Below are positions 13,541 to 48,496 of a DNA stretch of 64,000 bases, in pieces (position 1 is the first letter of the stretch; each line of letters opens with the position of its first letter). Position numbers and translations under genes: made by a program. This stretch comes from Eledone cirrhosa (taxonomy: Eukaryota): contig OZ024744.1 in the NCBI GenBank assembly GCA_964016885.1, positions 7,874,001 to 7,938,000 of the forward strand, in the 5' to 3' direction. Under the pieces are notes generated by a model. It was not told the DNA's origin, ran no database searches, and was given only the letters and a program-made list of their open reading frames with translations.

Positions 13541-15500
13541 TCACGCTCTGGAGAGTGGGGTGGTGGTGGGGAACGACGTTTCGGGCATAAGCCCTTCCTC
13601 GGGTGAGAAGTGTGTGGGAACAGAGTTCAAAGGGTGTGTAGGGGAGTGGTGGAGAGACATAGAGCGAAAGGAAACGGTGCGAATGAAATTAAAAAAATAT
13701 ATATATATATATGAAAACAGGGAGAAATAGGGTACCCGTTCGTCTCCAGCACCTCGAGGAATCGCTTGGAATGTGCGACACCACTCGCGGGATCGCTGCA
13801 TCTGTTTTTGATTCGCGCGATCTCGTTCGTGATGTATCCTCTTTTGGCACTGTTAGGGAGGGCGGACTTGTAGTGAACGAACAGGTCCCTGCAGGCTGCC
13901 TTTCGGCAGAAGTTGGAGTGGATCCTTCCCTGTTCCGTGATGTTGATTCGGAACTCGAGGAGGGCAAGTGACCCATCTTCGTTGGGGTGTTCAACACTGA
14001 AGTCAATGTTCTCGTCCGTGTTGTTGAACGTCCCATAGATTCTGTTCGCCGTGTCTTGGGAAGATGTGAGGATGAGGATATCGTCCACGTACCTTGAGAA
14101 AAAGGCGACGGCGTTGGGGTGGCAGGCGTTCAATGCTTTGCGTTCGAGGTTGTCCATGTAGGAGATCGCTAGCACACCTGATAGGCTTGATCCCATGGGC
14201 AATCCCGAGGTTTATTGGTATATTTGGTCAAGGAATCTGGAAGTAGGTGTTGTCGACGACAATGGATAGGAGTTGGTGGATGTCAGTGGTGGTGAGCCCG
14301 AAGCAGTGTAGGTCGGTGGATTGGACGCGACTACATCAAGGCTGAAGGTATATCTGTTATTCTTTCTGGTGTCGGGATCCATTTGATGCAGGCGCTCCAA
14401 CACCTCCTCGGAGCTGTTAACGTGTCCAGGCAAGGTGTCTAAGATGGGTTTAAGTATTCTGGCTAGGAGCCATGAAATTTTGTAGAGTGGTCCTTCCTCG
14501 CTCGATACAATGGGCCTGATCTTCAGGTCGGGTCCCTATTTGTGTGTTTTCACGAGGTGGTAGAAGGCGAGTAGTCTGCTGTTCCTCGTGAGGAGGTTGT
14601 ATCTGAGCTTCTTCGGGAGCTTCCGCCGGTCGCAGATGTTGGTCCAGGCGGTGTTGATGTGCTCTTCAATCTGCGCGGGAGTCATTCCCGTGACCTTGGA
14701 ATAGAGGTTGTCATTGTCAAGGTGTTGGAGGGCCAGGGTGTTGTAGGCCTCTCTGCTGATGACGCAGAATTCTTTTCCCTTGTCGGAGGGGAGATAGATG
14801 AGGTTCTTCGATTTTAGGTTGGAGAGGGTGGTGAGTTGAGATTTGGTGAGGTTATGTGTTGTGCGTGTGTGTGTGTGTTTGTGAAGTATATCCGAGATGG
14901 AGTGTTTTAGCCTGATGAGTTTAGAGTCGAGTTCGTGGTTGGTGGATGGATGGGGTGGAGTGGGTTGTCGGGGTGGTAAGTGGGGAACTTGGGGTGGGTT
15001 GCGTGGGCGCTGTTATTTATTATTTTTTTTTTCTGTGGCGCTGTTGATGGCGGTCACCCATTTAAGTTGGTAAGCGGCTCGACAAAAGTTGGCCTCGATG
15101 TTGAGTTTGTGTCTGTCGTCGAGACGTTGTGAGACGATGAACTTGGGTCCGAGGTGTAGGAGTTTCAGCTCGTCGCTCGTGAGAATGCCGGTTAGGTCGG
15201 TGACCAGGTGCGTCGCATCGTTGAGGTGTGGCTCGGTGTTGGTGGATGCGGCGGTGGCGTTTGTTAAGTTGTTCTTTTCCACGTGGTTCTGGTCCGTCTG
15301 TTCGTTAGTGTCGATGTTCTCGTTGTGGCGTTTCGACAAGATTCACTCATATTTTCGCTTGAGCCGTTTTTTCTCGTATTGGACTCTGGAGTGGTAGCAC
15401 TGGTCGATTGCTTTAGTGATTTTCAGGAGCAAGTCGCCGGGTGCTATTGACAGTCGATGTGTCCGCTCTGAGAGTGTCCGACAGAAGCAAAATGAGGTGG
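13541..15500 (-). mobile_element. Penelope-like element 1: degenerate YVDD-type RT, no GIY-YIG domain visible
   Basis: Joined frames give LLHLGPKF, SDKGKEFCVIS, FYHLVKTHK, IRPIVS, FSLDVVA, GLPMGSSLSGVLA, RYVDDIL and the thumb region ending LETNGYP. Stops, frameshifts and a deletion after motif A are present. Confidence 0.88.
13627..14202 (-). pseudogene. PLE reverse transcriptase palm/thumb fragment
   Basis: ORF track 191 aa with PMGSSLS and YVDD motifs. Confidence 0.88.
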
Positions 15501-16203
15501 CTGGTTTAAGTTAACAAACGATGCAGCAACACACGCACACACACAAGCGAGACAACAACACACACACACACACACAATAGCATTCCACCATACGAACATA
15601 CTACACTGCCTATACAGAGGAGCAAAGCAACAACACACGCACACACACACTCAAGCGAGGCAACAACACACGCACACACACACACACACACACACACACA
15701 GTAACATTTAACAAACAGGCAGAGAAAGGACTGACAGCTAGCGCCACCCCACTCCCACAATTGAAAGAACTACTTCGGCCGCTGACTTCTGCCCGACCGA
15801 CCCCATTTCACGCGCACGCGCGCTCTGCTGAATACCTCAGATATTCAAAACAACGAACAACGGAGGACGCGTTTCGCACCTTTCAGACAGACAACCTTTC
15901 CCCCACCCCGGAAAAAACCCCAGTTGATGGATGTGAATCCGAAATATATAGAGACAATTAAATCTCTCCCAAGGTAACTCTCTCTCGTGTTGTTATTTTT
16001 ATTTTATCCTTTATGCTCTTTCCTTCATTCCTCTACACGTCTTATACACGCCACGCATCTCAACGTACACCCACTTACATCTCTCTCTCCACCAGCGGAT
16101 CTTGTTACCCGGAGATTTATCCATTTGCATTGTCGAGGCTTCCAAACGACTTAAAGAAATTTACCTTATTATTCCACAATGCTTCAAGCAAACTTCAATA
16201 CTC

Positions 16204-17071
16204 TCATATATATATATATATATATATATATATATATATATATATATATATATATATGTGTGAAATGGGTGGTGGTTGAAATTCAGATGTGCACGGTTAA
16301 ATGATAGTAGACGTGGTCGGACGGATATGAAAATGTAAACACCTATGTAAAAAGTGCCAAGGAAGCAAATAGACGAGGTTTCAAATCTCTAACTTGAAAA
16401 ATGTGGTCCCTAGGGCCCCCAAACGGTCTATTTACTATCGTGTTCGGTGAGTTATTTCTCCCTGTTCTAATACTTGGCTGAGTTATTTACAATTTCATAC
16501 AATTTATTTTAACTCATCAACGTTCTTTCGCTGTTAACAAACAGAACCAATAATTTGAAAAATATTATTGAAAGTTTATTATCAAGAAGCAGTTTCAGGA
16601 AAAAGTGTAAACTATCATACAAACCTTCATAATATGCATTTTTAAACTTGCATATCATCGACATTGCTATTTCGCTGTTAATAAACTATCATCCTTCTAC
16701 ATTTAACGATCATACAGTGCCGTTTTATGAAATCGATTCTGCAGTACGGTCACTGTTTTCCATCAAAAGAAATAAAACCCTTAAATTGCGAAGAAGGGAC
16801 GCGTGTTTTTATTTTAATTCTAATACATGTTAACCACCACTAAGAGTAAGTAGTATTTTTTCAAATTGCATATCATCGACATTGCTATTTCGCTGTTAAT
16901 AAACAACGCTTTTCACGTCGCTCCACTTCTCATTGTACGGCGTCCAGCCCCAAGTGCATATTTCTATTTTTTTTCCTGAAACTGCTTCTTTATAATAAAC
17001 TTTCAATAATATTTTTCAAATTATTAACTTAATAAAAAGTGGCCCCGGGTGCAAGCGGGCTCAGCTGCTAG
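16204..17071 (+). mobile_element. Putative non-autonomous Helitron-like element
   Basis: 3' end is a GC-rich hairpin (GGCCCCGG..GCGGGC, 17041-17060) a few nt before CTAG (17068-17071) followed by T. Internal ~57-bp inverted repeat at 16549-16605/16971-17026 and ~42-bp direct repeat at 16644/16863. The 5' boundary is uncertain. Confidence 0.45.
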
Positions 17072-46457: not shown

Positions 46458-46469
46458 TATATATATATA

Positions 46470-46921
46470 TATAAGTATGTATACGTACATACATATATGT
46501 ATACAGACATACAGTAGTATGTATATATATACATACATGCACACATATATATATGTATGTACGGATTTACCGAACATTTATTATAATGCTCGGTTTGTTT
46601 GTAAACAAACAAACATCCCGAATTAAGCCGTACAGTGTTTAGCAACCATCGTTGCCCTTTTGTTCAACACTGACAAAAGAACGATGTACTAGTTTCAAGC
46701 TAATTAGCTATTGTTAGCACTGTATACCTTCCTGTCAGATGATTGAACGTCTGAAAATATATACTTTCCTTAGGCATATTAACGGCTGAGCAGCCTAATT
46801 TGCATATCGAGTGAGTTAATCGGCCGGGAGCACCAAAAACGAAAAATGGAAAAAATGAAACGAATTTCATTTCTCACTCTTAGTACGGCTGTTACTTAAA
46901 TATAAGTATGTATACGTACAT
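46470..46921 (-). mobile_element. Dispersed monomer of the ~430-bp retrozyme-like unit with terminal redundancy
   Basis: Starts and ends with TAAGTATGTATACGTACAT. The hammerhead core has decayed (CTAACAA) and the octamer is retained. Confidence 0.8.
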
Positions 46922-48496
46922 CTGTTAGAACACGAAAAGTGTGAAACAACAGAATGTTCACTTTTCGTGTTCTAACATATATGCCTAGCTTCTTCATAAA
47001 TTTTTCGGGGATAGCCGTGGTGGTGGTGATCGTATGTCATTGGCTAATTTTCAACCAATCAGAGTAAGTGTTGATATATATATATATATATATATATATA
47101 TATATATATATATATATACTATTCCCCCTCTCTATATATATATCTTACGCTTTCGCTTTACACTCCTCCCCTTCAATAACACATTTCCCCCTCTCTATAT
47201 ATCTCTTCCACTGTTACTTACGCCTGTTTCTCTCTATCTGTTCCGTCTCTATATATATCTCTCTTACTCTTTCGCTTTGCACTCCTCCCCTTCAATACCA
47301 TCTCTCCCCCTCTCTATATCATCTCTCCCCCTCTCTATATATTTGTTACTCTATCGCTGCACGCTCCTCTCCTTCAATATATCAATTACACACGCTTTAC
47401 ACTCCTTTATCCCCAGCGCCCCTATATATACACCCCCCTCCCGCATCTATATTTTAATGTTCCGTTGCACCGTGAATATATGTGTCTATATATATATACA
47501 TATATATTGTATATACACATTCATGTATGTGTATACACACTCATGTATGTATATACACTGGTTTTATGTGTGTATTGTAAATTTGTACTGTTAAAACACG
47601 AAACTAACATTCGATTGACACTTTGATTACCTGTACAGGCAATAGTTATTAGAATGCTGTTGAAGTGTGTATATATTTTTGGGGGACATCCTGTATATAC
47701 ACACATTATATATAATACAATAAACAGATAAATACACACATATATATATGAGCTTATTTAATTATAAATATTGTGAATTTTTAACTCAGTTCAATTATAT
47801 ATATAAATGGCTTCTACAGGACTAGAACTGTTTCATTCGAAAGAAATCATCATAATATTGAGAGGGGGGACTAGATAAAATATTTCAAATCAAATGTGTA
47901 TAAGTTATAAGTTAAAATGTATAAATAGAGACGATAGTGGAGGTATATCTGTTTAGTGGAACAGTCGACGATAGAATTAAATACAGACGAGAATCTCCCT
48001 TTAATGAAACAGCAGACGATAGAATTAAGGCAATTTAAATTTTAAACATTTGCATTTTTGCCTTTCATCGTTACGGGGTCGATAAAATAAAGTACCAGTA
48101 ATACACTGTCACTATAAGTAGACGACTTTCAAATTGAATTGTTGGTTCCATTTCTTTAGTATTTTCAATTGTAGTTATCTACTTAAAAAGCGTTACACGG
48201 TTAGAGACATAATTGGTAAGTTATATCTTCCCTATTAAACCATTGCATTATTTCGCCTACAATAGAACAAAAATGAAATGTTCTTTAAAGAAACAGGAAT
48301 ATAACTTTATAAAAAAAAAAGTTGCATCCGCTTCTTTTATCATTGATAATTTTTTCGTTTTAATATTAATTGTTTTTTGTAGTTGTTTATATTAAAAATC
48401 TTACTGTAATATTTACTTAAACGAAGGCAGACATCTAAACTTATAGATTAATCTTGAGCGAAGGACTAGATAAATCTCTCTCTCTCTCTCTCTCTC

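What the first reader, a model, noticed from the sequence alone, without database searches (positions are those of the whole stretch)
13541..47860. Exceptionally dense nest of PLEs and hammerhead ribozymes targeting (TA)n between two satellite arrays
Seen: five distinct PLE families and more than 15 hammerhead motifs from about 8-10 sequence families within ~35 kb. Almost every element ends a few tens of nt past its ribozyme, in a (TA)n tract. Known: PLE pLTRs carry hammerheads. The GLYRDD RT with CxC..C, CxxC and CxH motifs around a C-terminal GIY-YIG, and TA targeting, fit my recollection of the Hydra clade. Inference: the elements carry (TA)n/(CA)n-rich 3' regions and so seed their own future targets, producing a self-amplifying landing pad.
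Basis: partly seen in the sequence, partly recalled or inferred. Interest (0 to 1): 0.7.

Follow-up and report, generated by a model that had tools for sequence, protein, structure and literature searches.

The report
Penelope and retrozyme array in TA repeats
This stretch is a fairly dense but not unique pile-up of known kinds of jumping genes with self-cutting RNA motifs, sitting side by side in TA repeats; one family carries TA repeats that later insertions hit elsewhere in the genome, though that did not visibly build this cluster.

Summary
Observation confirmed: five PLE families (four Hydra-type, one canonical and Nematis-like), 13 well-folded type I hammerheads from 7 families plus 12 damaged or variant ones, and a ~430-nt tandem retrozyme. 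Insertions are head-to-head pairs with one short and one tailed end in (TA)n (7 of 7 in the window). 'Exceptionally dense' is overstated: 1.14 Mb of background holds 113 hammerheads (1.0 per 10 kb against 3.8 here), which puts the region in roughly the top 1-2% of a saturated 3-Gb genome; TA density is near average. End distances are 25-276 nt and bimodal, not always a few tens of nt. Self-seeding is partly right. Family E carries 4-12 TA tracts in its 3' UTR, and 6 of 30 UTRs sampled elsewhere are broken at such a run (3 verified on both flanks, one with a 14-bp duplication). But A and C carry none, and no element in this window was found inside a carried tract: the array is modular, likely because TA survives on both sides of each insertion. 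The scan has already noted this ecosystem and its uneven ends many times in this genome. Cleavage and expression are untested.

The parts
1..13287 (.). 102-bp satellite, left boundary; no TA tract, no hammerhead
   Evidence: TA-free DNA of the same GC continues 40 kb upstream
13527..13696 (-). Orphan 3' end (family X) with a damaged hammerhead core (C3 at 13602); not part of family A
   Evidence: 94% match to L167, whose core is intact; A copies continue into EN instead
13730..15480 (-). Family A left arm: canonical PLE RT (DKG, YVDD), broken off in the thumb; EN missing in this copy
   Evidence: Pfam RVT_1; a 923-aa frame with C-terminal GIY-YIG and CCHH in natural copy L141
15480..16205 (+). 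Family A inverted right arm: CA-rich 3' UTR, hammerhead-like motif with two core changes near 15921, ends in (TA)26
   Evidence: motif shared by 21 copies in fetched loci
17129..17371 (+). 3' end of family L with damaged hammerhead core, tailed end in TA
   Evidence: 31 library hits; intact relatives in background
17391..18193 (.). Family G head-to-head pair; hammerheads at 17632 (-) and 17853 (+); short end left, tail right
   Evidence: arms 94.7% identical
18211..23563 (-). Family B Hydra PLE: 3' pLTR, 1.7-kb UTR, frameshifted ORF 22564-19970, 5' pLTR, inverted tailed pLTR; hammerheads at 18304, 22801 and 23373 (damaged)
   Evidence: unit 4.5 kb; arms 97.4%; 151 exact core matches in the genome
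23642..24422 (.). Retrozyme F head-to-head pair, short end left, tail right; carried TA tract expanded at 24138-24295
24452..24700 (-). Family H 3' end with intact hammerhead at 24549, short end 43 nt from TA
24788..25110 (.). Two orphan tailed ends: D-type (-, cut inside the hammerhead) and L-type (+)
25166..26126 (-). Tandem retrozyme F units (~430 nt) with a local inversion; hammerheads at 25469 and 26026
   Evidence: 24,164 exact core matches genome-wide, with tandem spacing of about 420-490 nt
26138..26600 (+). Family I 3' end; hammerhead at 26390 folds as a three-way junction
26601..26936 (.). F remnant fused to a fold-back copy of the family C end; likely a later DNA-level inversion centred on the TA tract
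   Evidence: 95.8% to the C end, against 84.3% between C's own arms
26977..29938 (-). Family C degenerate Hydra PLE with inverted tailed arm; hammerhead with U3-A8 core (intact at 29748 +, damaged at 26832 and 27081)
30827..33522 (+). Family D 5'-truncated Hydra PLE with inverted short arm; hammerheads with U4A core at 30892 (-) and 33381 (+)
   Evidence: 20,026 exact core matches
34656..34812 (+). Family J (B-like) 3' end, damaged hammerhead at 34723
34858..42629 (.). Family E Hydra head-to-head pair: tailed end left, short end right; ORF arms 38389-37421 and 38466-39914; microsatellite 3' UTR; inner impaired hammerheads (36998, 40310) and terminal ones (35012, 42538)
   Evidence: coding arms 99.4% identical; 743 exact core matches
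42688..43204 (.). Family P head-to-head pair with tail; no hammerhead found in it
   Evidence: arms 92.3%
43856..44730 (-). Family K ends (damaged hammerhead at 44019) and a C-like 3' half at 44590-44730, each bounded by TA
46458..46921 (-). Retrozyme F monomer with decayed core
53792..64000 (.). 60-bp satellite, right boundary; no TA tract, no hammerhead

Best explanation
This is a modular array of Penelope-like retrotransposon insertions (four Hydra-type families, one canonical family), orphan 3' ends and a tandem hammerhead retrozyme that lie side by side in (TA)n tracts, likely because each insertion leaves TA on both sides and so keeps the site open for the next. Shown: the elements, the TA-anchored ends, two fixed 3' end points per family, head-to-head pairs with one short and one tailed end, a spread of ages, and TA cargo in family E that is hit by later insertions elsewhere in the genome. 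Inferred: the RT-GIY-YIG protein nicks both strands of a TA tract about 12-14 nt apart; each nick primes copying from one of two internal start sites on the RNA; the two cDNAs are joined head to head; the target is duplicated. Also inferred: the protein-free retrozyme uses the same machinery in trans, and family E gained its microsatellite UTR by reading through an inactivated inner hammerhead into flanking DNA. Carried tracts add targets but are a minor source.
For: 89 of 105 background hammerheads have (TA)5+ within 300 nt downstream, against 49 of 105 upstream and 37% of nearby random positions; distances are bimodal within families. Short+tail pairing: 7 of 7 pairs in the window, 15 of 16 distinct family E pairs elsewhere and 7 of 7 retrozyme F pairs elsewhere. 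Arm identities of 84-99% show insertions over a long time. Window TA zones: 30 of 52 were classed as abutting an end, and none of the carried zones is interrupted. One nested insertion duplicates 14 bp of a short TA site that is single in a sister copy (L191/L242 against L208). The inner E hammerhead has G at the cleavage position in 14 of 18 copies where it could be parsed (20 examined). TA-free satellites hold no hammerhead. In vitro, a Poseidon PLE cuts and extends both strands and starts at two internal sites that match the tail (PMC11167929).
Against: No RNA, cleavage or insertion assay; all mechanism is read from end structures. The window has 3.3 times more hammerheads per TA tract than background (13/84 against 113/2381), which tract re-use alone does not predict, so retention or chromatin may contribute. 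One E pair has two tailed ends (L084). The target duplication rests on one site. The zone classifier mislabelled several zones inside E, F and the C fold-back and left 11 of 52 window zones and 430 of 847 background zones unassigned, so a nested case could hide there. In PMC11167929 both strands used the same start sites, so the one-short-one-tail rule is not explained by that work.
Confidence: 0.78

Rival explanations
1. One reading: elements deliver TA-rich 3' regions and later elements land in them, so this cluster is a self-amplifying nest far above the genome background.
For: The E UTR with 4-12 TA tracts is part of the element in 19 of 20 copies. 6 of 30 UTRs are broken at a TA run, although (TA)4+ runs cover only 15% of that sequence; 3 are verified on both flanks. 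L084 shows an inverted E pair at E's own inner tract. B and F carry 2 tracts each.
Against: No interrupted carried tract was found in this window. A and C carry no TA. Carried zones are 33 of 847 in background. The window's TA density is 24.5 against 20.9 per 10 kb. About 1,000-2,000 equally dense 30-kb blocks are expected genome-wide (extrapolated).
Confidence: 0.1
2. The excess is retention, not attraction: a presumably gene-poor island between satellites where insertions are simply not purged, on top of ordinary clumping.
For: The 60 kb beyond the left satellite also holds 13 hammerheads, 2.2 per 10 kb. Old (84%) and young (99%) pairs coexist. The region was picked by a reader, so a 1-2% tail is expected somewhere.
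Against: It does not explain the end structure. The 5.9 kb between 47861 and the right satellite has no hammerhead. Gene content and recombination were not measured.
Confidence: 0.3
3. The short TA-flanked palindromes are MITEs or DNA fold-backs at TA cruciforms rather than retro-insertions.
For: They look like TIR elements in TA, as plant SaTar arrays do (PMC5907723). The 26819-27094 palindrome, centred on TA and younger than element C, fits a DNA fold-back.
Against: Arms are the 3' ends of RT-coding families, have unequal fixed ends and variable centres, and grade continuously into full-length copies.
Confidence: 0.05

Closest known systems
Hydra clade PLEs, including Hydra-1_Obim (Craig et al. 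2021, PMC8557442)
   Same: C-terminal GIY-YIG, RWK, DKT, CxCX5C linker, CxxC and CxH, no CCHH, canonical hammerhead, (TA)n target, tandem and inverted pLTRs, tail at one end
   Different: Units of B and E are 4.3-4.5 kb because of long 3' UTRs (published ones are mostly under 3 kb); tails of about 70-100 nt against 30-40; estimated 30,000-78,000 coding pieces in this genome, whereas the sections read report no high copy number for Hydra
Nematis clade PLEs (Craig et al. 2021, Fig. S7)
   Same: Family A has DKG, GPKF, CCHH, a short cysteine linker and an RT4-5 region most like the Nematis rows by eye
   Different: Linker is not a clean CX2-5CxxC; no labelled reference in my tree; hammerhead core doubly changed
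Metazoan non-LTR retrozymes (Cervera and de la Pena 2020, PMC7229834; Li et al. 2026, 10.64898/2026.07.22.740005)
   Same: Family F: tandem units with one type I hammerhead each, no ORF found, co-occurs with PLEs
   Different: Units reach 490 nt; insertions show the PLE footprint (TA, head to head, short plus tail), which the passages read do not describe
Poseidon PLE of Anolis in vitro (Frangieh et al. 2024, PMC11167929)
   Same: Two-strand cleavage and extension; two internal RT start sites that define the tail
   Different: Other clade, AT-rich rather than (TA)n target; no strand asymmetry seen
SaTar arrays of plants (Valdes Franco et al. 2018, PMC5907723)
   Same: Mixed-family, non-nested arrays joined by (TA)n
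   Different: Those are Mutator-like DNA transposons and were never nested; here nesting into carried TA does occur

Membership tests
Hydra PLE (B, C, D, E) | Single ORF, RT with C-terminal GIY-YIG | tested here: met
   714-aa natural E frame; Pfam GIY-YIG on B at E 0.0015, below the curated cut-off; RT-then-EN order in B, C and D
Hydra PLE (B, C, D, E) | RWK motif and DKT in place of DKG | tested here: met
   E: RWK and DKT; B: RWR and DKT; region lost by truncation in window C and D
Hydra PLE (B, C, D, E) | CxCX5C linker, CxxC and CxH, no CCHH | tested here: met
   B and E complete; D has CxxC and CxH, with a stop at the third linker cysteine; C not parsed
Hydra PLE (B, C, D, E) | Hammerhead in the pLTR | tested here: met
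   B and E canonical core; D U4A; C U3-A8 variant
Hydra PLE (B, C, D, E) | Insertion into (TA)n | tested here: met
   all outer ends in the window; all E outer ends listed
Hydra PLE (B, C, D, E) | RT groups with named Hydra references | tested here: inconclusive
   Quick tree puts B-E with unnamed Hydra-motif homologues, apart from A (SH-aLRT 100); named references compared by eye only
Hydra PLE (B, C, D, E) | Generally under 3 kb (descriptive, not diagnostic) | tested here: not met
   B 4.5 kb and E about 4.3 kb between hammerheads
Hydra PLE (family A) | DKT, GLYRDD, no CCHH | tested here: not met
   A has DKG, YVDD and CCHH
Nematis PLE (family A) | C-terminal EN with CCHH and cysteine linker | tested here: met
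   L141 frame; the linker spacing is atypical
Nematis PLE (family A) | RT placement with named Nematis | tested here: inconclusive
   by eye against Fig. S7; homologues carry no clade names
Naiad PLE | N-terminal EN, no canonical hammerhead | tested here: not met
   EN is C-terminal in all five families
Non-LTR retrozyme (F) | Tandem units of a few hundred nt, each with a type I hammerhead | tested here: met
   runs of matches about 420-490 nt apart; 430-nt unit in the window
Non-LTR retrozyme (F) | No coding capacity or attached RT | tested here: inconclusive
   unit repeats directly on itself; not checked across 24,164 copies, as loci could not be cut
Non-LTR retrozyme (F) | Self-cleavage and circular RNA | not testable with these tools
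   needs RNA data or an in vitro assay

The most novel reading that the evidence does not exclude
A Hydra family captured its own target microsatellite by knocking out an inner ribozyme and now spreads TA tracts that other PLEs and retrozymes demonstrably hit. Together with target duplication at each two-strand insertion, this feedback may have generated much of this genome's six million TA tracts and about 300,000 hammerheads, making Hydra PLEs architects of the microsatellite landscape rather than only users of it.
Probability: 0.2. Interest if true: 0.7.

Novelty: new member of a known kind. Interest (0 to 1): 0.4.

Why it matters
How PLEs form inverted pairs, tails and microsatellite bias is named as open in PMC8557442. 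This genome offers young intact Hydra families, thousands of natural insertion products with a near-strict one-short-one-tail rule, a retrozyme with the same footprint, and nested sites whose empty state is known from sister copies. That makes the insertion mechanism and the seeding idea directly testable. The cluster itself is one of many and is not special.

Tried and rejected
Rfam scan: the listed hits were below-threshold matches, mostly microRNA models on TA/CA repeats, with no hammerhead family among the 150 of 253 shown. Pfam missed the Hydra RTs. MFE folding gave the three-way hammerhead shape for only some motifs (clearest: I and C at 26832), so it was not used as a test. Idea that X is the 3' end of an EN-less family A: rejected. 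Idea that short pairs are truncated at the hammerhead cleavage site: not supported, since the centres seen lie upstream of it; not quantified. ARAGORN found no tRNA. The careful tree did not finish; the quick tree is reported. Two B copies among 40 scored candidates end near B's carried tracts, but their flanks were not fetched, so they are not counted. No structure prediction or complex job was run. Paper searches listed no report of high-copy Hydra families or of carried TA being re-targeted; the library is open-access only and I read listings for most hits.
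Full report
Setting. The window lies at G000:C28:7874001-7938000 in a 3.0-Gb animal assembly. A 102-bp satellite fills 1-13287 and a 60-bp satellite runs from 53792 to the end. The closest homologue of family A that names an organism is an Octopus bimaculoides protein (55% over half the query), and family E resembles Hydra-1_Obim, so a cephalopod host is likely; I did not pursue the source further.

Coding elements. ORF listing and tblastn give one canonical PLE and four Hydra-type insertions. 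B, C, D and E share 36-48% RT identity and have no significant match to A. Craig et al. 2021 (PMC8557442; I read sections 3, 6, 11, 12 and 15, supplement parts 1, 2 and 58, and search passages) define Hydra by RWK, DKT, a CxCX5C linker, CxxC and CxH, no CCHH, hammerheads and (TA)n targets. A natural 714-aa E copy (L079) has all the protein motifs. B has them, with RWR for RWK. D and C are truncated or decayed. Of 120 E homologues, 120 have GLYRDD and 118 DKT/S, against 0 of 95 A homologues with GLYRDD. A natural A copy (L141) has DKG, GPKF and a C-terminal EN with CCHH and looks most like Nematis by eye. A quick tree of 68 rows (24 of 120 E homologues, 37 of 95 A homologues, 7 window or genome rows) separates the two groups fully, but holds no named reference.

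Hammerheads. My own descriptor scan finds 13 folded type I motifs from 7 families in 34.3 kb; shuffles gave none at that threshold with the earlier version of the scanner. Twelve more damaged or variant cores bring the total to about 25 from about 13 families. C has the U3-A8 core reported for Schistosoma PLEs (PMC4209133; part 1 of 4 and passages read), D has U4A, and A's motif has two core changes and is of doubtful activity. Family F is a ~430-nt unit that repeats on itself, with 24,164 exact core matches, many in tandem runs: a non-LTR retrozyme in the sense of PMC7229834 (passages). Exact core counts for D, E and B are 20,026, 743 and 151.

Is it exceptional? I sampled 60 stretches of 10 kb and 18 blocks of 30 kb at fixed round coordinates on the large contigs. 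They hold 113 hammerheads (one is an evident false positive), 19 Hydra coding pieces and 2,381 TA tracts in 1.14 Mb. Extrapolated, that is about 245,000-357,000 hammerheads and 30,000-78,000 Hydra pieces (Poisson limits, which ignore clumping), in line with 43,679 first-look candidates for the E RT. The region has 3.8 hammerheads per 10 kb against 1.0. No block reached 13 (0 of 18, maximum 10), the negative-binomial tail is 1-2%, and four Hydra insertions against 0.57 expected gives P 0.003. TA tract density is ordinary (24.5 against 20.9 per 10 kb). So it is a real local excess in a saturated genome, after selection by a reader.

Ends. Of 105 background hammerheads with 400-nt flanks (8 of 113 dropped), 89 have (TA)5+ within 300 nt downstream, 49 upstream, and 37% of nearby random positions do. 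Distances are bimodal within families. In E the short end lies about 41 nt and the tailed end about 109 nt after the cleavage site, and the tail is the sequence that follows the 5' pLTR. Insertions are head-to-head pairs with one end of each kind: 7 of 7 in the window (G, B, F, C, D, E, P), 15 of 16 distinct E pairs elsewhere and 7 of 7 F pairs elsewhere. Craig et al. note inverted copies and a tail often at one end. Frangieh et al. (PMC11167929; parts 1-2 of 4 read) show two-strand cleavage and two internal start sites, and that ribozyme cleavage is not needed in vitro. Twin priming from two nicks is my inference. Arm identities run from 99.4% (E) to 84.3% (C), so the array grew over a long time.

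Self-seeding. The microsatellite UTR of E is part of the element: 19 of 20 copies chosen by ORF match have it whole (1.7-2.3 kb, 4-12 TA tracts), and the twentieth has an inverted E pair at an inner tract. Of the first 30 of 230 matches to a UTR anchor, 6 are broken at a TA run. Three are verified on both flanks: L183 (a small hammerhead insertion), L189/L233 (about 8 kb) and L191/L242 (about 5 kb, an inverted hammerhead pair). Three show one flank only and could be deletions. (TA)4+ runs cover 15% of that UTR part. L191/L242 duplicates 14 bp that is single in L208. The inner hammerhead is about 82% identical to the terminal one, is followed by a short-end-like TA relic, and has G at the cleavage position in 14 of 18 parsed copies; the window's subfamily keeps A there but has weakened stems. 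This suggests capture of an old flank (inferred). Against generality: A and C carry no TA, B and F carry two short tracts, and D none in 3 of 4 other copies. In the window no carried zone is interrupted, and in background carried zones are 33 of 847 against 384 end-flanking (the classifier is rough and leaves half unassigned). The array is therefore modular, like the plant SaTar arrays (PMC5907723, passages).

Prior notes. After my own analysis of ends I found eight earlier scan reports of the same ecosystem on other DNA of this genome, and one that rejected self-seeding for a long-tailed Hydra family. These are unchecked AI notes; I count them only as a sign that the picture is genome-wide. 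Li et al. 2026 (part 1 of 5 and passages; supplements not seen) argue by phylogeny that retrozymes derive from PLEs. An octopus repeat annotation (PMC13282606, passages) does not use the word Hydra.

Verdict. New members of known kinds in a moderately dense modular array. The added value is direct evidence that carried TA tracts get re-targeted, one measurable target duplication, and the scale of the Hydra expansion. Nothing is shown about cleavage, expression or present activity.

Noticed in passing
window 52056-53008: A ~950-bp element with 211-bp terminal inverted repeats, 99.5% identical; likely a recent non-autonomous DNA transposon, next to a retrozyme F fragment at 53008-53116.
   Followed up: no
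window 13343-13440, 48845-49215, 49843-50024, 51330-51505: A high-copy ~180-bp repeat (about 90-140 library hits) that looks SINE-like by eye; ARAGORN finds no tRNA.
   Followed up: partly
window 16549-17025: 56-bp inverted repeats around ~370 bp, MITE-like, with one homologous locus.
   Followed up: no
window 38369-38424: The junction of the two E arms holds 5.6 copies of a 10-mer taken from the truncation point, suggesting slippage during joining.
   Followed up: no
window 30534-30810, 33017-33297, 41870-42227: Short tandem units of 95, 142 and 120 bp; the 142-bp pair is in D's UTR in other copies too, and the 120-bp triplication was not found in the other E copies.
   Followed up: partly
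window 53116-53597: A (TGG)n-type trinucleotide array next to the right satellite.
   Followed up: no
L211, downstream of the anchor: An E UTR breaks at its main TA tract into what reads by eye as Ty3/gypsy-like pol sequence.
   Followed up: no
L033 6637-7693; L086 1105-1646: Other tandem hammerhead units of about 530-540 nt, likely a further retrozyme family.
   Followed up: no
protein hits: 1,428 Hydra-like proteins among 7,998 candidates, the listed ones mostly on short contigs and almost all unnamed, suggest the clade is far larger than the 27 families listed in PMC8557442.
   Followed up: no
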